Shown here: positions 872 to 51,522 of the stretch, one piece after another
How positions within the stretch are numbered: the first letter of the stretch is position 1
How the letters are laid out: each line of letters starts with the position of its first letter
From: Dehalococcoidia bacterium
GTDB taxonomy: Bacteria > Chloroflexota > Dehalococcoidia > Lucifugimonadales > UBA1123
Reading direction: 5' to 3'
NCBI GenBank assembly: GCA_965116415.1
Contig: OZ220693.1
Span: 2,220,753 to 2,284,752 of the forward strand
Length of the DNA stretch: 64,000 nucleotides
Position numbers and translations under genes: made by a program
The notes under the pieces: model-generated
What the model saw: only the letters and a program-made list of their open reading frames with translations
What the model was told of the DNA's origin: nothing
Database searches by the model: none

Positions 872-900
872 GTGGATTCCCGCTTTCGCGGGAATGACGG
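872..900 (+). repeat. Family-B hairpin element
   Basis: gtggattcccgctttcgcgggaatgacgg. The hairpin is attcccgc/gcgggaat with loop tttc. Confidence 0.85.
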
Positions 901-8936: not shown

Positions 8937-10360
8937 ATGGTGGCTGAGTCGGGGCGGGCCTTGGAGAGGGCGTGGATGTGCCGGGTGTGCTCGCGTCCGA
9001 ACGTTGAGGACGCAACACGGTGCGCCAACTGCTGGGCGAACCGGCCTGAAGACGTCGAGCTGCTGGACATGCCGGACGCGGACGCGCTGGCAGCGCGGGT
9101 CCGGAGGTCGAGGGTCAGCCGGCGTGTGCTGCGGTGGGCTGTGGGAGTCGCAGTCGTGGCCCTCGCTGCCGCCTGGTTCATTCTGCCGCACTTTGGTGTG
9201 GCGCTCTTCCAGTCCGAACCCTCGCTGGACATAAGCTCGTCTCCGATTGGCGGCGACTGGCCGATGTACCAGCGTGACCTCTCCCACAGCGGGGCAGCGA
9301 CCGGCAATGAGTTGGCACTGAAAGGCCGCCTCAAGTGGGAGTACGATGCCGACGGTCCGATGTACTCATCTCCCGCCGTGGTCGATGGGAGGGTCTACCT
9401 GGCGACGGGGGCAGGGTCGATTGTCGCTCTGGACGCAGAGACGGGCGAGGAGGTCTGGAAACACACTACCGGAGGGCCGCTGAACTCGTCGCCCGCGATT
9501 GCGGGGGAATGCTGTTCATTGGGCGTTTCGACGGCGGAGTAGAAGCGCGCGACCTGGGAACCGGGGATGTCCTATGGGAGTTCATGACCGGGGCCAGGGT
9601 GATTTCGTCCCCAGCCGTGGACCGTGGCGTCGTGTACATCGGATCCGGTGACGGCAACCTGTACGCGCTCGACGCGGGCACAGGTCAGGAGCGTTGGACG
9701 TACAGGACACGGGGCTGGATCAGCAGCTCGCCGACCGTGTTCGATGACTATGTGGCCATCGCGTCGTTCGACGGCCTTCTGCACGTGGTACACAGGGACA
9801 CTGGGAAGAAGCGTCTGGACTTTCATCTCTCCGAGACGCCTCGAAGTTCGGCCGCGTACGGGGAACAGCACCTCATAGTCGCCGACGGTCGGGGCCGGCT
9901 CAAGGCCGTGGACTGGAGGGAGCGTACGCTGCCGCTGGAATGGCTGTGGCTGAAGGTCCGGGTACAGCTCTTGTACTGGGGCATGATCGATACGCTGTCG
10001 AATCAGAAGGGCTTCATCTGGGGGACCTCCACGGAAGACGCCTTCATGGGTACGCCTGTGGTCTCAAACGGGATCGTGTTCGCGGCGAACTTCGGGGGAA
10101 CGGTGATCGCGGCTGACGAGAGCACGGGGGAGGTCGTGTGGCGGACGCAGGTCGGCGCTCCGGTATCGGGGTCGATGTCGGCAGTCGCAGATGTCGTGCT
10201 GGTTGGAGACACGGACGGCATTCTGCACTCACTCGACGCAGAGACAGGCGAATCGCGATGGCAGTTCAGGACGGATGGGCGGATCAGCGCGACGCCGGTC
10301 GTGGTGGATGGGGTAGCTTACGTTGGCTCATGGGGCGGGGCTCTGTACGCGGTTGAGTAG
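8937..10360 (+). pseudogene. Zinc-ribbon / TM / PQQ-like beta-propeller repeat protein, interrupted by a -1 frameshift in a G5 run (9503..9507)
   Basis: ORF 8937..9542 (CRVCSRPNVEDATRCANCWA zinc ribbon, TM segment, PQQ-like repeats) and ORF 9335..10360 are collinear with the intact paralogue at 29396..30802. Frame 1 ends ...SSPAIAGE and frame 2 continues GGMLFIGRFDGG. The paralogue reads SSPAVAGDLLYIGLRDN at this point. Confidence 0.8.
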
Positions 10361-10430
10361 CGCCGTCAATCTGACGCGTCATCGGGCCTTATGGAACATA
10401 TCGCTGCTCACGAACGTCTTGAACACTTAG

Positions 10431-11780
10431 ATGCCCAGTCTGGAGCGTCCTGAACGTACTTCGCCCACAGCGCCGGGAGTAGAGGCAATGAACAGATTAG
10501 TGGCAGCAGTGCTCGTGCTCGCCTTCACGGTCGGACTGTTTCTAGTCGCCTGCGACGATTCGCCATCTACGCCTGATTCAATCGTGATGCCAGACAGGGC
10601 CAAGCCGTCGGCCGCCGAGTCTGAGATCGACGATCTGGTGCGGGGAAACAGCGCATTCGCGTTCGACCTCTACCAGACGCTGAACTCCGAAGACGGGAAC
10701 TTGTTCTACTCGCCCTACAGCATCTCGATTGCCCTGGGGATGACATACGCGGGAGCTAGGGGTGAGACCGAGAGTCAGATGGCGGACACACTTCACTTCA
10801 CTCTTCCCCAAGGCACTCTCCACCCAGCGTTCAACACGCTGTACCAAGACCTCGACTCTCGAAATGATGACGACCCATCCGCATTCCAACTGAGCATCGC
10901 GAATGCTATGTGGGGACAGCAGGACTACCAGTTCCTGGATGAGTTCACCACTGTAGTTGGTGAGAACTACGGCGCCGCTGTGAGACCGACGGACTTCGTG
11001 GGGCAGCCTGAGGAGTCACGACTCAGGATCAACGATTGGGTTGCTAACGAGACCGAGGACAGAGTCAAAGACATGATTCCTGAGGGGAAGTTTGAGGACG
11101 TGCCGCCCGTGCTGGTGCTCACAAACGCCATCTACTTCAACGCGGCCTGGGTAAGTAAGTTCAATGAGATGTCGACACTCACCAATTTTCACAGGCTTGA
11201 TGGGGAAACGGTGGCCGTACCGATGATGAACCGGGCAGAAAAAACGAGCTACGCCAGTGGGGACGGATACCAGGCGGTCGACCTGCGGTACAAGTTCGGC
11301 AATATATCCATGACGGTTCTGATCCCGGACTCCGGATCATTCCAGGCGTTTGAGAAATCCCTGGACGACGAGCTGGTGGCACGAATCATTGACGACCTCG
11401 AGACAAGGCAGGTCGTGCTGACTATGCCGAAGTTTGAGTTCGAGTCGACGCTTGACCTCGCCGACACGCTCAAGAGCATGGGAATGACCAACGCATTCGA
11501 AGAGAGAAGAGCAGACTTCTCCGGTATGGATGGCAAGTCATGCATGGCAGGAGATGTCCCATGTCTGCTTCTCTCGGACGTCATTCACAAGTCGTTCGTG
11601 GTGGTGGATGAAGAGGGAACCGAAGCTGCCGCAGCTACCGCGGTGGTAGTCATATTGGAGAGCGGAGCGCCAGACCCTCAGGTTGAGCTAGTCATCGACC
11701 GGCCGTTCATCTTCCTGATTCGAGATAACGGAACAGGCACAATCCTGTTCGTGGGGCGAGTGCTGGACCCCAGTGCTTAG
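10431..11780 (+). CDS. Serpin (serine protease inhibitor family), probable lipoprotein; copy 1
   Basis: 449 aa. NSAFAFDLY, NLFYSPYSISIALGMTYAGARGET, the hinge EEGTEAAAATAV and the C-terminal DRPFIFLIRD are all serpin hallmarks. The likely true start is ATG 10488, giving MNRLVAAVLVLAFTVGLFLVAC (lipobox). Confidence 0.92.
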   Translation: MPSLERPERTSPTAPGVEAMNRLVAAVLVLAFTVGLFLVACDDSPSTPDSIVMPDRAKPSAAESEIDDLVRGNSAFAFDLYQTLNSEDGNLFYSPYSISIALGMTYAGARGETESQMADTLHFTLPQGTLHPAFNTLYQDLDSRNDDDPSAFQLSIANAMWGQQDYQFLDEFTTVVGENYGAAVRPTDFVGQPEESRLRINDWVANETEDRVKDMIPEGKFEDVPPVLVLTNAIYFNAAWVSKFNEMSTLTNFHRLDGETVAVPMMNRAEKTSYASGDGYQAVDLRYKFGNISMTVLIPDSGSFQAFEKSLDDELVARIIDDLETRQVVLTMPKFEFESTLDLADTLKSMGMTNAFEERRADFSGMDGKSCMAGDVPCLLLSDVIHKSFVVVDEEGTEAAAATAVVVILESGAPDPQVELVIDRPFIFLIRDNGTGTILFVGRVLDPSA

Positions 11781-24487: not shown

Positions 24488-26491
24488 CTACCAATCAGTT
24501 ACCCAGAGCAGCTCATATTCCCCACCCACCGGGAGCCCGGACCCGGCTGTTATATCTAATGATGACGTCCGCATCCGCGTGTAGAGATCGAAGTCCATGT
24601 AGAGCATGCCCCTTGTTGTCAGGATGAACGGTATGTGGCCCTCCTCGAGGAGGCGCTTGAAGTCGGCGTCGTCTATCAGCGCTTCCAGTTTGTACTCTGA
24701 GTAGAGCGGAAGGACGGGTTCTCCTGTAATCAGAGCGACCACCGCCCCAGTGTTGTAAGTGTCGGTTGCGAGGAGGTAGTGGGAGTCCCCGCGACGACTT
24801 CGAACGTACTCCAGGGCGGCCTCGAGCTGGTCCAGCTCGATCCTGACAATCGCCGTAATCAGCGCGCCCTGTCTCTGTTTGCGGCGCTCATCGCGGGTCA
24901 ACTCTGGTCCCCTGAAGCCGGGGATGTCGACCTGGTCGAAGCCGATTCTGCCGAGGGTGTCGTCGCGCGGGTTGGTGAGGTTTTTATAGGTGACGCTGGC
25001 CGTCAACGCTACTGCGCCGAGGCAGACCACCACCAGAGTCGCGGTGGATACGTCGAACCCGAATGGCCGCCACCCGAAGTACACGAACACAGCGGCGACG
25101 GCAATGGCCAGGCTGAACACTAACGCCAGGTTCGAGGCGGTACTGAAGTATGGAGCAACCTCGCGCACCTGTCCGTACACGGCCGCGCAGTAGAGCAGAC
25201 CGGCCAGCGCTCCGAGGAATACCAGCCATGCGGCCACACTACCCCTTCGCAGCAGCGCGGGAATAGACGCCACCCCGATGCCGGCAAGCGCGGCGATGGC
25301 TGGGGTCGTGACCGTCCAGTAGGTCGCAAGCCTGATTGATGCGCCACCGAATCCGACAAGGCCCACTCCGAACCAGACAAGCCACAAGACGCCGAGTCCC
25401 AGCCCGGGCAGAGCGTCAGATGGCGCGGGTCTGGTCGGACTCGGGGCGCGACCCGACACGAGCTCGACCAGCGAGCGGGCACGGTCGGCGAGCCGGGGAA
25501 AGCGTCGGCTGACTGAACTCCAGTATCTCGCTCCGGTCTCAGATGCGCGGTCCCGGACGCTGACCAGGACGGCGAAGACTCCGATCAGGGCTGCCGGAAC
25601 GAGCGAGGCGCCGAAGTACACGCTCATCGGGCCGGTGACGAACCACAGTATGTCTCGCCTGTGGCGAGCGCCGTACTCGAGCTCGCCGTATCGCTCGAAG
25701 AGGTTCCATCCGAAGATCATGTGCCAGACGCTGTCGGCGTGCATCACGGCGTCGTACGCGCCGGGAGTCAGCCAGACGATCACAGGCCACCAGAAGGCGG
25801 TAACCAGGAAGACCGCCGCGCACTTCAGGCCGACCTTCACCAAGTCGGACCACGGCTGCCATCTGTACGCCAGCGCGAGCAGCGCGAACGCGGGTGCTGG
25901 CAGCAGTCCCTGCCACAGCTTGACCATGAACGCCAGGCCCAGGATGAACGCGCCCGCGTAGTAGAAGCCCTCCCGCCTCTCCTGCACGGCCCTGACGACG
26001 AAGTATGCTGCGAACAGCATGGTCGCGGTCGTCACGGGCTCGATGAACGTCGCGCGGGAGTAGTTGACGTCGATGGGCATGATCGCGAGCGCGGCTGCGG
26101 CTATCAGCGCCGGAACCGTCCCGCTGCAGCGCCTGACGATCACGTAGAGCAGCACGACTGAACAGATCCCGGCAAGCGCGACGGGCAGCCTGAACGAGAT
26201 GTTCGAAGGTCCGAGCAGCGCGATGAACAGTCCCTGGTACCAGAAGAACAGCGGGGGCTTGTCGGCAAGTATCGAGCCGTCCGCGAACATGTTGGGGTAG
26301 AACCAGTTGTGGAACGACTTGTAGGCGTGCGACGAGATCGACGTGTAGATCGCAAGTCCCGGGTGCCCGTGACCGAGGTCGTACAGCCGCACGAATGCCG
26401 CGAGGGCCAGCACCGGCGCGAATGCGGCGAGGTGGAGGTGGCGCGACAGTCGGGATGCTCCGTCTCTCGTGCTGTCCTGTGTGGTCGACAA
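24488..26491 (-). CDS. Membrane glycosyltransferase, GT39/GT83-like (PMT/ArnT-type, polyprenyl-phosphate sugar dependent)
   Basis: 667 aa with more than 10 predicted TM segments. The N-terminal loop motif is ...ADKPPLFFWYQGLF. TTG start as given by the track. Confidence 0.75.
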   Translation of the reverse strand: MSTTQDSTRDGASRLSRHLHLAAFAPVLALAAFVRLYDLGHGHPGLAIYTSISSHAYKSFHNWFYPNMFADGSILADKPPLFFWYQGLFIALLGPSNISFRLPVALAGICSVVLLYVIVRRCSGTVPALIAAAALAIMPIDVNYSRATFIEPVTTATMLFAAYFVVRAVQERREGFYYAGAFILGLAFMVKLWQGLLPAPAFALLALAYRWQPWSDLVKVGLKCAAVFLVTAFWWPVIVWLTPGAYDAVMHADSVWHMIFGWNLFERYGELEYGARHRRDILWFVTGPMSVYFGASLVPAALIGVFAVLVSVRDRASETGARYWSSVSRRFPRLADRARSLVELVSGRAPSPTRPAPSDALPGLGLGVLWLVWFGVGLVGFGGASIRLATYWTVTTPAIAALAGIGVASIPALLRRGSVAAWLVFLGALAGLLYCAAVYGQVREVAPYFSTASNLALVFSLAIAVAAVFVYFGWRPFGFDVSTATLVVVCLGAVALTASVTYKNLTNPRDDTLGRIGFDQVDIPGFRGPELTRDERRKQRQGALITAIVRIELDQLEAALEYVRSRRGDSHYLLATDTYNTGAVVALITGEPVLPLYSEYKLEALIDDADFKRLLEEGHIPFILTTRGMLYMDFDLYTRMRTSSLDITAGSGLPVGGEYELLWVTDW

Positions 26492-26652
26492 GGTGATTTC
26501 GTACTCACTTAGCGACAGGTGGTCGCAGTCCCACGATGCTATTCGCCTTAGGCCGATAATGAAAAGACCCTATGGGTAACTGTCTCTATATTGACCCCAT
26601 CCCCACTGATGTGTAACCTGCATACACACTATATCCCAAGTGAGATGTCACA

Positions 26653-26928
26653 ATGGCCAGGGTCCAGCTAATAATCCCCGATGAGGATCGAGACCGCTTT
26701 GTTCACCAGGCGCGCAAGGAGGGCCTGACGTTCAGCGCGTGGCTGAGGGCCGCCGCTCACGACAGGGTGGAGGCGGCGCAGCGGGCGAAGCGCTTCAGGA
26801 CGCTTGAGGATCTAGAAGCCTTCTTCGAGGCTTGCGACTCCTTACCGGGCCCCGAGGTCGAGCCGGACTGGGAGGAGCACCTCCAGACAATGCACGAGTC
26901 GATAACCAGCGGCCTCCCAGACGTATGA
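26653..26928 (+). CDS. Ribbon-helix-helix-type antitoxin (VapB-like)
   Basis: 91 aa. MARVQLIIPDEDRDRFVHQARKEGLTFSAWLRAAA. Its stop overlaps the VapC start (ATGA). Confidence 0.7.
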   Translation: MARVQLIIPDEDRDRFVHQARKEGLTFSAWLRAAAHDRVEAAQRAKRFRTLEDLEAFFEACDSLPGPEVEPDWEEHLQTMHESITSGLPDV

Positions 26929-27320
26929 TCTTTGTAGATGCCAACGTCTTCATGTACGCGGTTGGGCGGTCTCACCCGCTTCAGCCTCGTGCCCGCGAGC
27001 TGTTCTATGAATCAATGCGCGACCGCAAGCAACTGGTCACTTCAGCTGAGGTTATCCAGGAGTTGATGCACGTCTATCTGCGGACGAGTAGGCCGCACAC
27101 CCTAGACTCGGCGTTATCCCTCATAGATGGATACGGGGTGGACGTATGGCCCCTGGAGCGCGAGGACGTCATCGCCGCCAGACAACTCCATCTCCAGTAT
27201 CCGCAGCTTAGCGCCAGAGACCTCTGTCACCTCGCAAGCTGTCGAAGGCGCAACGTGCGGGAGATCGTGACATTCGATCGTGCGCTCGCATCCGTGTTCG
27301 GTAGCCCGCCAATCCCGTAG
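26925..27320 (+). CDS. vapC: PIN-domain toxin VapC
   Basis: Start taken at ATG 26925 (MIFVDANVFMYAVG...). The acidic PIN residues are present (D5, E in ...SAEVIQEL, D in ...SARDLCHLA). Confidence 0.8.
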   Translation: MIFVDANVFMYAVGRSHPLQPRARELFYESMRDRKQLVTSAEVIQELMHVYLRTSRPHTLDSALSLIDGYGVDVWPLEREDVIAARQLHLQYPQLSARDLCHLASCRRRNVREIVTFDRALASVFGSPPIP

Positions 27321-27440
27321 CCGCCGGGCTCGAAAAACTCAGCTAGACCGTTAGACCGCTGGAGGAGATGCGGGCTAATGTACCGGGGTTGGATTGAGAC
27401 GGGGGAGCTACTGGAAGAGACTATGAGGAGTTAATTCACG

Positions 27441-28895
27441 ATGGTTGGAGAACCCATCACAGTGATCGAGTTACAGAAGTCCGTCCCACTTAAGCTCCGT
27501 GAGCCAACGGTCGATTCCACGGACCCCTGGGCGGACGATCTCCTCACTCGACGGGACATTGCGGTACGGCTGACAAACCTGATTGCAGTTCAGGAGCCTC
27601 CCCTGACCGTCAGCATCCACGGACAATGGGGAACAGGCAAGACCTTCATGCTCACACGATGGCAGAAGGAACTAGAGAATCTAAACTTCAGGGCAGTCTA
27701 CTTCAATGCGTGGGAGGATGACTTTTGTGATGACCCACTACTCGCGATACTTGGGCAGATGTCTGAGTACTTCAAGGAAGATGATCTCAAGGCTTTAGCT
27801 CACCGCGTTATTCAGACTGCGATCCCACTAATACAAAAAAATGTGCTGGGTGTCCTATCAAAGACTACAGGGCTAACATTAAAACTTGAGGAAAGTCGGG
27901 AGGCTGAGCGAGATCTCTTCAGCGAGTATCTTGACCAAAGAGCAACAAAGGATTCACTGAGAGAGAGCCTAGAGGCAATGTCGGCAGCAGTGTTTCAGGA
28001 GACCGAACACCCCCTGGTCTTCATAATCGACGAGCTTGACAGGTGCCGTCCCACATTTGCTATCGAGCTTCTCGAGAGGGTAAAGCACATATTTGACGTC
28101 CCACACATTGTTTTTGTGCTTGGCCTCAACCGAGATGAGCTTGCCAAGTCATTGTCGTCAGTTTATGGAGACATCAACGCAGACGTTTATCTCAGACGCT
28201 TCTTTGATTTTGAATTCAACCTTCCAGAGGCTGACTCAAGAGCATTTGCCGCCCACCAAATAGCAAGACTCAATCTTCAGAGCGTCTTCCTAGGACTTTC
28301 CGAAGCTGCCAACAACGCAGTCCATGTACACGACTACGACAACTACCACATAGTCATCCCCGGCCTCTGGAGCGCCTTGGGCCTCTCCCTTAGAGACATT
28401 GACTACGGCATACGTCTGCTTGCCCTCCTTGCTCGGAATGTAAAGGTGGGCACCTTCACTCACCCATTCCTACTTGCCATCCTCATTGCGATGAAGTTCA
28501 AGAATCCAGATATCTATCACTCGCTGGTGACAGGAAACTTCCGAACTAGAGAGGTCATGGGTTATATCGAAGAACAATTGAGACGAGACTTGATTGATAG
28601 GGACCTGTCTGCCCACTTGGACAGGAGTGAAGGCTTCCTCTATTGCGCCGACAGTGCCAATGCCGCATCCCAGATGGTCGGTGAGACCGCCCTTGCTGAA
28701 TTAGAGGGAGTATTGGAGAGGTCTCCTAGCATGGACTTTTTGGTGATTTCTCAAAGAGCGCAGGATGCTGATCGACATCAGTTAGACAGAATCAGACAAG
28801 CGATCCTCGACGGATCCAATTTGAGCATAAGTCGGAGGGTGCTAGGCAACCTAGCTACTCTTATCGACACATATCAGACACAATTGAGACGTTAG
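27441..28895 (+). CDS. KAP-family P-loop NTPase
   Basis: 484 aa. Walker A is HGQWGTGKTFM, and Walker B with the KAP-typical Arg/Cys is FIIDELDRCRP. The gene is visibly more A+T-rich than its flanks. Confidence 0.8.
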   Translation: MVGEPITVIELQKSVPLKLREPTVDSTDPWADDLLTRRDIAVRLTNLIAVQEPPLTVSIHGQWGTGKTFMLTRWQKELENLNFRAVYFNAWEDDFCDDPLLAILGQMSEYFKEDDLKALAHRVIQTAIPLIQKNVLGVLSKTTGLTLKLEESREAERDLFSEYLDQRATKDSLRESLEAMSAAVFQETEHPLVFIIDELDRCRPTFAIELLERVKHIFDVPHIVFVLGLNRDELAKSLSSVYGDINADVYLRRFFDFEFNLPEADSRAFAAHQIARLNLQSVFLGLSEAANNAVHVHDYDNYHIVIPGLWSALGLSLRDIDYGIRLLALLARNVKVGTFTHPFLLAILIAMKFKNPDIYHSLVTGNFRTREVMGYIEEQLRRDLIDRDLSAHLDRSEGFLYCADSANAASQMVGETALAELEGVLERSPSMDFLVISQRAQDADRHQLDRIRQAILDGSNLSISRRVLGNLATLIDTYQTQLRR

Positions 28896-28965
28896 CCAAC
28901 GCCTTGACGGCCGTGAACCGCACACATCACGCGAACCATCTGGCAACGCAACGCGAGGTGATGAC

Positions 28966-29208
28966 ATGACAGACTGGAACACGTGTCCGGAGGTGGAGAG
29001 TGTGCCAGACAAGGTCAGTGGCACCTGGGTGTTCACTGGCACTCGCTTGCCTGTGTATGCCCTCTTCGAAAACCTTGCAGAGGGTGCGTCGATACACGAC
29101 TTCGTTGATTGGTTCGACTCGGCAGACGAGGAGCAGGTGAGGGCGGTGCTGTTGCACGTGGCACAGGACCTTCGGTCCTCGGTCGCCCATGTGCATCCTC
29201 TTCGATAG
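28966..29208 (+). CDS. DUF433-family small protein (antitoxin-like)
   Basis: 80 aa. ...KVSGTWVFTGTRLPVYALFENLAEGASIHDFVDWF matches the DUF433 pattern from memory (G.P.i.GTRipv..il..l..G.s). Confidence 0.65.
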   Translation: MTDWNTCPEVESVPDKVSGTWVFTGTRLPVYALFENLAEGASIHDFVDWFDSADEEQVRAVLLHVAQDLRSSVAHVHPLR

Positions 29209-29286
29209 CGTCCTCCATCGGCCAGAGCCTGACACCGCCTGTAACGCACTTCCTCGGGTAGCCTAACGCGATACCCCACTCCCCTA

Positions 29287-29315
29287 GTGGATTCCCGGTT
29301 TCGCGGGAATGACGG
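29287..29315 (+). repeat. Family-B hairpin element
   Basis: gtggattcccggtttcgcgggaatgacgg. Confidence 0.85.
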
Positions 29316-29395
29316 CGAGCCCGGCGAGGTGCGCGAAGTCCCGATTTAGCTACGTCGGTGCATCGGGGCGGCGTGTTCTTGTATCATCAAGTGTT

Positions 29396-51495: not shown

Positions 51496-51522
51496 AGATT
51501 CCCGCTTTCGCGGGAATGACGG
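51496..51522 (+). repeat. Family-B hairpin element
   Basis: agattcccgctttcgcgggaatgacgg. Confidence 0.85.

What the first reader, a model, noticed from the sequence alone, without database searches (positions are those of the whole stretch)
27441..29266. KAP-family P-loop NTPase islet flanked by VapBC and a DUF433 gene with a possible truncated partner
An A+T-richer gene encodes a 484-aa KAP NTPase, with Walker A GQWGTGKTF and Walker B IIDELDRCRP. It sits immediately after a VapB(RHH)-VapC pair and before a DUF433 gene.

The 3' end of the DUF433 gene overlaps a short ORF at 29189..29266 (MCILFDSVLHRPEPDTACNALPRVA*). The first residues of this ORF resemble the start of the PIN-like DUF5615 proteins that normally partner DUF433 (M.ILfDe.L...). 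It stops after 25 codons, just before a family-B repeat (29287). This suggests a decayed toxin.

KAP NTPases are poorly characterised and recur in conflict-system neighbourhoods. This one is a stand-alone gene with no recognisable effector domain that I can see.
Basis: partly seen in the sequence, partly recalled or inferred. Interest (0 to 1): 0.55.

Follow-up and report, generated by a model that had tools for sequence, protein, structure and literature searches.

The report
KAP NTPase surviving a decayed restriction operon
The gene cluster is the eroded remnant of a type I restriction-modification operon: the restriction genes are gone, but the passenger genes they carried survive, namely a soluble KAP-family ATPase of an untested candidate phage-defence family, a VapBC toxin-antitoxin pair and a DUF433 antitoxin whose toxin partner has been destroyed.

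Summary
The 484-aa ORF at 27441-28895 is a KAP P-loop NTPase (Pfam 1.9e-35). It follows a VapB/VapC(PIN) pair and precedes a DUF433 gene. The 25-codon ORF is the 5' stub of a DUF5615-type gene. That gene is intact in a syntenic relative (L001) and carries a different deletion in a third syntenic contig (L086).

The new result is the origin of the cluster. The KAP matches PADLOC candidate family PDC-S20 (6.7e-96). In 39 of 83 loci this family lies between hsdM and hsdS of type I R-M operons, with order hsdM-[Fic/VapBC/TIR]-KAP-hsdS-[DUF433-DUF5615/Macro/M78]-hsdR. The window keeps that order without the hsd genes, and a frameshifted hsdM 3' relic sits directly before the KAP start. L001 and L086 keep other hsdM and hsdS relics.

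The KAP has no TM helix and intact NTPase motifs. Its ATPase core resembles ORC/Cdc6, RdrA and BrxC. Its C-terminal all-helical domain has no PDB match. It evolves under purifying selection (dN/dS 0.21), with dS in the range of flanking core genes. Only the KAP gene is A+T-rich, which is a family-wide trait.

Verdict: a new member of a known but untested candidate family. The mechanism is inferred only.

The parts
26606..26629 (+). Conserved sequence upstream of vapB, likely the cassette's promoter/operator region
   Evidence: 96% identical over 24 nt to the equivalent position upstream of vapB in L005 (E 3e-4)
26653..26928 (+). VapB-like antitoxin, 91 aa, weakly RHH-like
   Evidence: Weak NikA-like RHH hit (0.005) and NCBIfam VapB hit (0.015). 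ATGA overlap with the PIN gene. Homologous vapBC cassettes at 65-74% nt identity in 8 other KAP loci.
26925..27320 (+). VapC PIN-domain toxin, 131 aa from ATG 26925
   Evidence: Pfam PIN 5.6e-19, NCBIfam VapC 8e-07. Found upstream of the KAP gene in 9 of 83 loci, directly upstream in most of them.
27350..27434 (+). Relic of the 3' end of hsdM (type I methyltransferase), frameshifted by a 2-nt deletion, ending a few nt before the KAP start
   Evidence: blastn of window 27356-27428 against the hsdM 3' end of L018: 73% over 75 nt, E 1.8e-5. tblastn VRPLEEMRANVPGLD matches HsdM residues 623-639. Multiple alignment with intact hsdM ends of L007/L018 and relics in L001/L002/L004/L005.
27441..28895 (+). 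Soluble KAP-family P-loop NTPase of the PDC-S20 candidate family, 484 aa. NTPase core is about residues 38-270; family-specific all-helical C-terminal domain is about residues 265-484.
   Evidence: Pfam KAP_NTPase 1.9e-35; PADLOC PDC-S20 6.7e-96. More than 2000 homologues. AF2 pLDDT 84 for the whole protein and 92 for the C-terminal domain. No TM helix. dN/dS 0.21.
28966..29208 (+). DUF433 protein, 80 aa, predicted antitoxin and now an orphan
   Evidence: Pfam DUF433 2.3e-11. 69-83% nt identity to DUF433 genes that lie between hsdS and hsdR in L005, L007, L008 and L018, and to L001. dN/dS 0.22 against L001.
29189..29218 (+). 5' stub of the DUF5615-type (PIN-like) partner gene; the ORF reads on to 29266 in non-homologous sequence
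   Evidence: Aligned with the start of the intact gene L001:10121-10438, with the same 20-nt overlap with DUF433
29289..29313 (.). REP-like palindromic hairpin (8-bp stem ATTCCCGN/NCGGGAAT) inside the destroyed DUF5615 gene
   Evidence: 3 copies in the window, 0 expected by chance. 36 copies across the related loci, with stem variants that keep the pairing and non-conserved flanks.
29317..29349 (+). 3' stub of the DUF5615-type gene (EPGEVREVPI*), out of frame with the 5' stub
   Evidence: Aligned with the last codons of L001, L007, L008 and L018 DUF5615 genes

Best explanation
**Origin (shown).** The locus is a fossil type I restriction-modification operon that once doubled as a small defence island. 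The ancestral order was hsdM-(vapBC)-KAP-hsdS-DUF433-DUF5615-(hsdR), inserted between the PMT_2 glycosyltransferase gene and the PQQ beta-propeller gene.

**Decay (shown).** In this genome hsdM is reduced to about 85 frameshifted nt directly upstream of the KAP start. hsdS and hsdR are gone. The DUF5615 PIN-like toxin gene has been gutted by an internal deletion and now holds a REP-like hairpin. Intact survivors are VapBC, the KAP NTPase and the DUF433 antitoxin.

**The KAP protein (shown).** It belongs to the PDC-S20 candidate family and is a soluble KAP P-loop NTPase. All nucleotide-hydrolysis motifs are intact. A helical hairpin sits at the position where classical KAPs carry TM helices. 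The C-terminal all-helical domain is specific to this family.

**Mechanism (inferred).** The protein acts as an NTP-driven oligomeric switch, like the ORC/Cdc6-, RdrA- and BrxC-type ATPases it resembles structurally. The C-terminal domain would bind a partner or an infection cue. In the native operon the gene is tightly packed between hsdM and hsdS, with gaps or overlaps of a few nt that suggest translational coupling. There it probably serves as a second-line, abortive-type defence backing up restriction, following the PrrC/EcoprrI logic. Its persistence under purifying selection without cis hsd genes indicates that it can act without them.
For: **Family and native context**
- PADLOC PDC-S20 hit at 6.7e-96.
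- Among 83 loci, hsdS is present in 39, hsdM in 36 and hsdR in 30. hsdS lies a median of 6 nt downstream of KAP on the same strand, and hsdM abuts or overlaps the KAP start.
- The closest relatives L002, L084 and L085 (72-76% identity) are embedded in R-M operons.
- In a neighbour-joining tree, window and L001 nest among R-M-embedded copies.

**Relics**
- Window hsdM 3' relic.
- L001 hsdM N-terminal relic (E 5e-5) and C-terminal relic (E 8e-5), plus an hsdS C-terminal relic (E 0.02).
- L086 hsdM 3' relic and hsdS N-terminal relic (E 1e-6).

**Synteny**
- Window, L001 and L086 share the PQQ junction. Window and L001 also share the PMT_2 side.
- The gene order equals that of L005 minus the hsd genes.

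**Selection and inheritance**
- KAP dN/dS is 0.21 with dS 0.475; flanking core genes have dS 0.43-0.80.

**Structure**
- Foldseek matches to ORC/Cdc6 (2.5e-5), RdrA (TMq 0.46) and BrxC.
- The C-terminal domain is confidently modelled (pLDDT 91.7) but has no PDB match.
- That domain occurs only in this ~460-500-aa architecture or in shorter fragments, among 1.84 billion representative proteins.
- No TM helix (Kyte-Doolittle 19-residue maximum 1.36).

**Source of the candidate family**
- PADLOC's PDC candidates, the set PDC-S20 is named from, were derived by 'guilt by embedding' in BREX, DISARM and type I R-M systems (10.1101/2024.01.29.577857).
Against: - No member of PDC-S20 has been tested, as far as the searchable literature shows. 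'Defence' is therefore guilt by association.
- No effector domain or catalytic motif beyond the NTPase was found, so the killing or blocking step is unknown.
- A type I R-M system elsewhere in the genome, acting in trans, cannot be excluded from a 64-kb window.
- Some family members are pseudogenes: L012, L029 and L067 are split, and L006 appears N-terminally truncated. The gene is therefore dispensable in some hosts.
- That hsdR was ever present at this exact locus is inferred from other operons, not seen.
Confidence: 0.75

Rival explanations
1. The KAP is an accessory or regulatory subunit of the type I R-M enzyme, for example controlling assembly, HsdR loading or restriction alleviation, rather than a defence protein in its own right. 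In this genome it either serves a type I system encoded elsewhere or is a leftover drifting towards loss.
For: The gene sits between hsdM and hsdS with gaps or overlaps of only a few nt in dozens of operons. It has no effector domain. Some copies are pseudogenes.
Against: The ORF is intact with dN/dS 0.21 over dS of about 0.5, although hsdR is missing at the same junction in all three syntenic genomes. About half of the 83 loci have no hsd gene within 8 kb, yet most keep a full-length KAP. Most type I operons function without such a gene (general knowledge).
Confidence: 0.15
2. VapBC and KAP form one functional module. The KAP NTPase senses infection and releases or activates the adjacent VapC RNase; in other loci the equivalent effector would be a Fic or TIR protein.
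For: A toxin-type gene lies between hsdM and the KAP in several loci. VapBC is found upstream of the KAP in 9 of 83 loci, Fic upstream of it in several, and ThsB-like TIR in L085 and L086. VapBC cassettes of 8 other loci are homologous to the window's at 65-74% nt identity.
Against: Most operons have hsdM abutting KAP with nothing in between. The closest relative, L001, has the KAP without VapBC. VapBC is a self-sufficient type II TA module (established knowledge).
Confidence: 0.07
3. This is the first reader's model: an independently acquired A+T-rich islet made of a stand-alone KAP gene that happened to land between unrelated TA modules.
For: The KAP gene is about 10 G+C points below its surroundings. 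No hsd gene is present in the 64-kb window.
Against: hsdM and hsdS relics flank the KAP in the window, L001 and L086. The window keeps the same gene order as intact operons. Low G+C is a property of the KAP gene even inside intact operons. KAP dS equals that of flanking core genes, which argues against recent acquisition.
Confidence: 0.03

Closest known systems
PDC-S20, a PADLOC single-gene 'phage defence candidate' (Payne et al. 2024, bioRxiv 10.1101/2024.01.29.577857)
   Same: HMM PDLC04959 matches residues 17-406 at 6.7e-96. Relatives are embedded in type I R-M operons, which is the criterion by which PADLOC's PDC candidates were defined.
   Different: This copy is no longer embedded, because its host operon has decayed. 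The family itself has no experimental validation or known mechanism.
PifA of the F plasmid (KAP NTPase; abortive exclusion of phage T7)
   Same: KAP NTPase core (PADLOC PifA 2.7e-19 over residues 33-266). Single-protein architecture. No TM helices, as reported for PifA (PMC13001434).
   Different: PifA is 720 aa with a different C-terminal region, and similarity is limited to the NTPase core. There is no evidence here for membrane association or for T7-type triggers.
PrrC/EcoprrI, an anticodon nuclease embedded in a type I R-M operon
   Same: The gene is embedded in an hsdMSR operon and the protein has an NTPase N-terminal part. The logic of a second-line defence kept in check by, or coupled to, the R-M enzyme (PMC3710099) is the working analogy.
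   Different: PrrC has an ABC-type ATPase and a C-terminal HEPN nuclease. This protein has a KAP ATPase and a helical domain with no nuclease motif or fold match.
RdrA (RADAR), QatA (QatABCD) and BrxC (BREX) ATPases
   Same: Foldseek similarity of the ATPase core (RdrA TMq 0.46, BrxC 0.42). QatA HMM hits at 1e-14 to 1e-16 over two short stretches.
   Different: Those proteins act with dedicated partners (RdrB deaminase, QatBCD, BREX proteins). No such partners are nearby, and all scores are far below family cut-offs (NCBIfam QatA 58 bits against a cut-off of 600).
DUF433 / DUF5615 (PIN-like) predicted type II toxin-antitoxin pair
   Same: The DUF433 gene overlaps the start of a PIN-like DUF5615 gene. 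The intact pair is present in L001, L007, L008 and L018.
   Different: In the window the toxin is reduced to 5' and 3' stubs, so only the antitoxin remains.

Membership tests
KAP family P-loop NTPase (Pfam PF07693) | Profile match above the curated cut-off | tested here: met
   1.9e-35, 123 bits against a cut-off of 20, residues 38-270
KAP family P-loop NTPase (Pfam PF07693) | Intact Walker A and Walker B (hhhhDELDR) motifs and conserved downstream Asn/Arg residues | tested here: met
   G61, G64, G66, K67, T68, D197, E198, L199, D200, R201, N230, R252 and R253 are invariant in 38 homologues and present in the window protein
KAP family P-loop NTPase (Pfam PF07693) | Transmembrane helices associated with the NTPase domain (classical KAPs; absent in PifA) | tested here: not met
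   Maximum Kyte-Doolittle 19-residue mean is 1.36. AF2 shows a soluble helical hairpin, residues 115-188, with a disordered tip. This feature is not universal in prokaryotic KAPs (PMC13001434), so membership stands.
PDC-S20 (PADLOC candidate) | Match to a PDC-S20 HMM over most of its length | tested here: met
   PDLC04959 6.7e-96, profile positions 3-399 of 464. Three further PDC-S20 models hit at 1e-34 to 2e-46.
PDC-S20 (PADLOC candidate) | Anti-phage activity | not testable with these tools
   No experimental report found. PDCs are candidates by definition.
Type I restriction-modification system | Intact hsdM, hsdS and hsdR genes | tested here: not met
   Only an approximately 85-nt frameshifted hsdM 3' relic remains. 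No HsdM, HsdS or HsdR hit with E<1e-3 anywhere in the 64-kb window.
VapBC type II toxin-antitoxin | PIN-domain toxin preceded by a small overlapping antitoxin gene | tested here: met
   PIN 5.6e-19; ATGA overlap; 91-aa upstream gene with weak RHH/VapB hits. The antitoxin fold assignment is weak.
DUF433-DUF5615 toxin-antitoxin pair | DUF433 gene present | tested here: met
   2.3e-11
DUF433-DUF5615 toxin-antitoxin pair | Intact DUF5615/PIN-like partner | tested here: not met
   The 25-aa ORF has no HMM hit. Only the first ~10 codons of the stub and the last 10 codons are homologous to the intact L001 gene, which scores DUF5615 4e-05, 23.9 bits against a cut-off of 23.8.
QatABCD / PifA | Full-length match and, for Qat, partner genes | tested here: not met
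   QatA 58 bits against an NCBIfam cut-off of 600. The PifA hit covers the NTPase core only. No QatBCD-like neighbours.

The most novel reading that the evidence does not exclude
The PDC-S20 KAP NTPase could be an autonomous immune or conflict protein without a recognisable effector domain. Its family-specific C-terminal helical domain, which has no match among solved structures, would be a new kind of sensor or effector. Type I R-M operons would then be its vehicle rather than its partner. This would explain why the KAP gene survives, under purifying selection, the independent decay of hsdM and hsdS (and the absence of hsdR) in three syntenic genomes.
Probability: 0.25. Interest if true: 0.6.

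Novelty: new member of a known kind. Interest (0 to 1): 0.4.

Why it matters
The case shows how a compact defence island ages. The restriction enzyme genes are lost first. A toxin is lost while its antitoxin stays. One embedded passenger, the KAP NTPase, is kept.

For the untested PDC-S20 family this is useful comparative evidence. The gene is mostly found inside type I R-M operons, between hsdM and hsdS, but it remains under selection without them. That makes it a good candidate for stand-alone functional tests. It also sets up a direct comparison between the 'R-M accessory' and 'independent second-line defence' hypotheses.

The family is especially common in MAGs of Dehalococcoidia, Caldilineaceae, Nitrospirales and related groups. 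Some of these carry sponge-associated names (for example Poriferihabitaceae).

Tried and rejected
- **TM helices in the KAP:** none found.
- **tRNA or Rfam elements as island borders:** none in the window.
- **Sequence search of the PDB with the family profile:** no hit.
- **Foldseek of the isolated C-terminal domain:** nothing significant; best E 0.3, TM below 0.3.
- **Other architectures containing the C-terminal domain:** none. All 114 hits are the same ~460-500-aa architecture or shorter fragments.
- **Promoter and terminator scan:** no more sites than expected by chance.
- **Plasmid and phage collections:** only distant homologues at 27-31% identity, not in R-M context. These are uninformative for this subfamily.
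- **Literature:** no paper names PDC-S20 or describes a KAP gene inside hsd operons. The original KAP paper (PMC416466) is not held.
- **The 59 nt between the DUF5615 5' stub and the hairpin as part of a larger repeat element:** rejected, because the flanks of the hairpin copies are not conserved.
- **DUF433 as a specific partner of KAP:** rejected. They become neighbours only after hsdS is deleted; in intact operons hsdS separates them.
Full report
**1. What is in the sequence**

The region contains four genes on the + strand.
- A 91-aa gene at 26653-26928.
- A PIN gene whose real start is most likely ATG 26925 (ATGA overlap with the preceding stop), ending at 27320.
- A 484-aa ORF at 27441-28895.
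- An 80-aa ORF at 28966-29208.

A 25-codon ORF at 29189-29266 overlaps the last 20 nt of the 80-aa gene.

HMM searches support most of the assignments.
- KAP_NTPase: 1.9e-35 (123 bits, cut-off 20, residues 38-270).
- PIN: 5.6e-19.
- DUF433: 2.3e-11.
- The first gene is only weakly RHH/VapB-like (0.005 and 0.015).
- The 25-aa peptide gives no hit.

The flanking genes are a PMT_2 glycosyltransferase (24488-26491, minus strand) and a PQQ-type beta-propeller protein (to 30802; start at 29309 or, by alignment with the L001 gene, more likely ATG 29396). The window contains no tRNA gene and no Rfam match.

**2. Composition**

The KAP gene has G+C 0.50 and GC3 0.55. The whole window is 0.605, and the flanking genes have GC3 of 0.78-0.81. 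VapBC (0.609) and DUF433 (0.584) are not atypical. The compositional anomaly therefore belongs to one gene, not to an islet.

It is also a family trait. In 83 loci the KAP gene has median G+C 0.493 against 0.599 for its surroundings. It is lower by more than 3 points in 77 of the 83 loci, including copies inside intact operons.

**3. The KAP family and its usual home**

The protein matches PADLOC's PDC-S20 model PDLC04959 at 6.7e-96. Hits to PifA (2.7e-19) and QatA (1.6e-14) are confined to the NTPase core.

PADLOC's PDC entries are 'phage defence candidates'. They were predicted because they are embedded in BREX, DISARM or type I R-M systems, and they are untested (10.1101/2024.01.29.577857). 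No paper in the library names PDC-S20.

The family is large. More than 2000 homologues were found, and the best 120 are mostly about 477-495 aa and mostly alignable over 97-100% of the query at 55-82% identity; a few are shorter fragments.

A scan of species-representative genomes returned 80 loci. They come mainly from MAGs of Dehalococcoidia/SAR202, Caldilineaceae, Tepidiformaceae, Nitrospirales, Poriferihabitaceae, Gammaproteobacteria, Hydrogenedentes and Victivallales.

I clustered all ORFs within 4 kb of the KAP gene and named the clusters with Pfam.
- A Methylase_S protein (HsdS) follows the KAP on the same strand in 39 of 83 loci, at a median distance of 6 nt.
- An N6_Mtase (HsdM) precedes it in 36 loci, often abutting or overlapping the KAP start.
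- A ~1000-aa HSDR_N/ResIII protein (HsdR) follows in 30 loci.

The canonical order is hsdM-[Fic | VapB-VapC | 146-aa protein + ThsB-like TIR]-KAP-hsdS-[DUF433-DUF5615 | Macro | M78 peptidase-DUF4411 | BrnT]-hsdR.

Homologues of the window's own vapBC lie upstream of the KAP in 8 other loci, directly upstream in most (65-74% nt identity). Homologues of its DUF433 lie between hsdS and hsdR in L005, L007, L008 and L018 (69-78% nt identity). Locus L005 reads hsdM-vapB-vapC-KAP-hsdS-DUF433-Macro-hsdR. The window reads vapB-vapC-KAP-DUF433-(DUF5615 stub), which is the same order without the hsd genes.

**4. Relics prove the origin**

*Window.* The 85 nt immediately upstream of the KAP start (about 27350-27434) are homologous to the 3' end of hsdM.
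- blastn against the intact hsdM end of L018 gives 73% over 75 nt, E 1.8e-5.
- The translated sequence VRPLEEMRANVPGLD matches HsdM residues 623-639.
- In the multiple alignment a 2-nt deletion frameshifts the remainder (IETGELLEETMRS*), which otherwise matches ...TEGLLEEIVGG*.

*L001.* This locus comes from a 4.18-Mb contig, and its KAP is 82% identical to the window's. It is syntenic with the window on both sides: SBP_bac_5, PMT_2 | KAP, DUF433 | PQQ, CoA_transf_3. It keeps three relics.
- HsdM residues 6-33, with a stop codon (61% identity, E 5e-5).
- HsdM residues 611-650 (E about 1e-4), directly upstream of the KAP.
- A stop-riddled relic of HsdS residues ~351-442 between the KAP and DUF433 (E 0.02).

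*L086.* This third contig has a KAP 73% identical to the window's and shares the right-hand junction with PQQ. It keeps an hsdM 3' relic and the first 26 codons of hsdS (65% identity, E 1e-6).

L001 retains the 3' part of hsdS and L086 the 5' part, so the hsdS deletions were independent. hsdR is absent at the same DUF5615/PQQ junction in all three.

hsdM 3' relics also sit directly before the KAP in other R-M-less loci (L004, L012). They occur as second copies in operons where cargo has been inserted between hsdM and the KAP (L002, L005, L048, L049, L067).

In a neighbour-joining tree, window and L001 are sisters nested among R-M-embedded copies (L002, L084, L085) and relic copies (L086, L004). 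Stand-alone copies are scattered through the tree.

**5. The DUF5615 stub**

In L001 an uncalled 105-aa ORF (10121-10438, TTG start) overlaps the DUF433 stop by 20 nt, exactly as the window's short ORF does. It reaches Pfam DUF5615 at 4e-05 (23.9 bits, cut-off 23.8), with a weaker PIN_10 hit. Its homologues in L007, L008 and L018 are 55-77% identical to it.

The DNA alignment shows what the window keeps.
- The first ~30 nt of the gene (ATGTGCATCCTCTTCGATAGCG against TTGCGCATACTGTTCGATAACG).
- The last 33 nt (EPGEVREVPI* against KPGEVLEVPI*), in a different frame.
- About 100 nt in place of ~250 nt between them, including the hairpin GGATTCCCGGTTTCGCGGGAATGAC at 29289-29313.

L086 has a different deletion: about 17 codons are followed directly by the PQQ upstream region. 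An orphan antitoxin is the expected outcome, because loss of a toxin is harmless while loss of an antitoxin is not (established TA biology). DUF433 remains under purifying selection (dN/dS 0.22).

**6. Is the KAP still functional?**

The ORF is intact, and a GAGGAG Shine-Dalgarno-like sequence lies upstream of the ATG. All residues that are invariant in 38 homologues are present: K67, T68, D197, E198, D200, R201, N230, R252 and R253, plus the C-terminal motifs LSLRDIDYGIRLL, MKFK, LDRSEGFLYCAD, VISQRAQ and LIDTYQ.

Against L001, dN/dS is 0.21 (0.15 for the N-terminal half, 0.30 for the C-terminal half) with dS 0.475. Flanking core genes have dS of 0.43-0.80 and dN/dS of 0.05-0.16.

The cluster therefore co-diverged with the chromosome, and the KAP has been maintained by selection. 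Since hsdR is missing at the same junction in all three syntenic genomes, that selection acted without a cis-encoded restriction subunit.

**7. Structure and likely mechanism**

AlphaFold2 gives a confident model: pLDDT 84.3 and pTM 0.75, with low confidence only at residues 1-6 and 139-156.

The best PDB matches are ORC/Cdc6 (E 2.5e-5), RdrA of RADAR (TMq up to 0.46), BrxC of BREX, McrB and FtsH. These are ring- or oligomer-forming AAA+/STAND-like ATPases.

Between the second strand and Walker B there is a long helical hairpin (residues 115-188). I take this to be the position where classical KAPs carry TM helices, which rests on my recollection of the KAP literature. Here the hairpin is not hydrophobic: the Kyte-Doolittle 19-residue maximum anywhere in the protein is 1.36.

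The C-terminal 220 residues fold as a 12-helix domain (pLDDT 91.7). This domain has no significant structural neighbour in the PDB (best E 0.3). It has no sequence relative with a solved structure. It occurs in no other architecture among 1.84 billion representative proteins. No nuclease, HEPN, TIR or other effector signature was found.

Shown:
- The protein is a soluble KAP NTPase with intact catalytic motifs.
- It carries a private helical domain.
- In its native context it lies between hsdM and hsdS with gaps or overlaps of a few nt.

Inferred:
- It is an NTP-driven oligomeric switch whose helical domain binds a partner or an infection cue.
- In the operon it acts as a second line of defence, in the manner of PrrC with EcoprrI (PMC3710099) or as an abortive-infection NTPase like PifA (PMC13001434).
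- It can act without the R-M genes.

How it would harm a phage or the cell is unknown.

**8. Comparison with known systems and novelty**

The gene is a member of the KAP family and of the PDC-S20 candidate family, and both profile tests are met. It is not a PifA or QatA orthologue. The cluster is not a type I R-M system any more.

Genes embedded in type I operons, orphan antitoxins and decaying R-M systems are all known phenomena. The contribution here has two parts. The first is the reinterpretation of the 'islet' as a fossil operon. The second is comparative evidence that this embedded KAP outlives its host operon under selection. I rate it a new member of a known kind, of moderate interest. 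The untested family and its structurally orphan C-terminal domain are the part worth experimental follow-up.

Noticed in passing
window 874-898, 29289-29313, 51496-51520; also L071 (9 copies), L075, L010, L041 and others: A short REP-like palindrome, (T)GGATTCC[C/G/T]GC-NNNN-GC[G/C/A]GGAATGAC, recurs in MAGs assigned to different groups. Stem variants keep the pairing (CCCGC/GCGGG, CCGGC/GCCGG, CCTGC/GCAGG) and the flanks are not conserved. In L071 and L075 some copies are spaced about 90 nt apart in arrays next to tRNA-like sequence.
   Followed up: partly
L002 7892-7987, L005 7123-7263 and 7929-7991, L048 5246-7950, L049 7784-7927, L067 7677-7844, L040: Where cargo genes (Fic, VapBC, Y1 transposase) sit between hsdM and the KAP, extra copies of the hsdM 3' end are found, usually directly upstream of the KAP. 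This suggests that cargo is inserted or exchanged by recombination at the conserved hsdM 3' end. L086 shows the 146-aa/TIR cassette without such a duplication, so it is not universal.
   Followed up: partly
L085 6861-7894, L086 1244-2278, L002 6510-6950: A recurrent 146-aa protein with no Pfam family follows hsdM. In L085 and L086 it is followed by a 192-aa ThsB-like TIR protein immediately upstream of the KAP. This may be another embedded defence cassette.
   Followed up: no
L085 16117-17217: A second, shorter KAP_NTPase gene (366 aa) lies just downstream of hsdR in the same island as the PDC-S20-type KAP.
   Followed up: no
L001 9456-9897 versus window 28896-28965: The KAP-DUF433 spacer is 442 nt in L001, where it holds the hsdS 3' relic, but only 70 nt in the window. 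This shows further trimming of the relic in the window lineage.
   Followed up: yes
L012, L029, L067, L006: In these loci the KAP gene is split into two ORFs, or in L006 appears N-terminally truncated. The gene is evidently being lost in some hosts.
   Followed up: partly
L087 (Cupriavidus plasmid p352-2), L088 (Burkholderia glumae plasmid pR52p): Distant KAP homologues (about 30% identity) on conjugative plasmids of cultured bacteria sit next to an HNH endonuclease gene or next to a second, 1000-aa KAP NTPase. Neither is in an R-M operon.
   Followed up: partly
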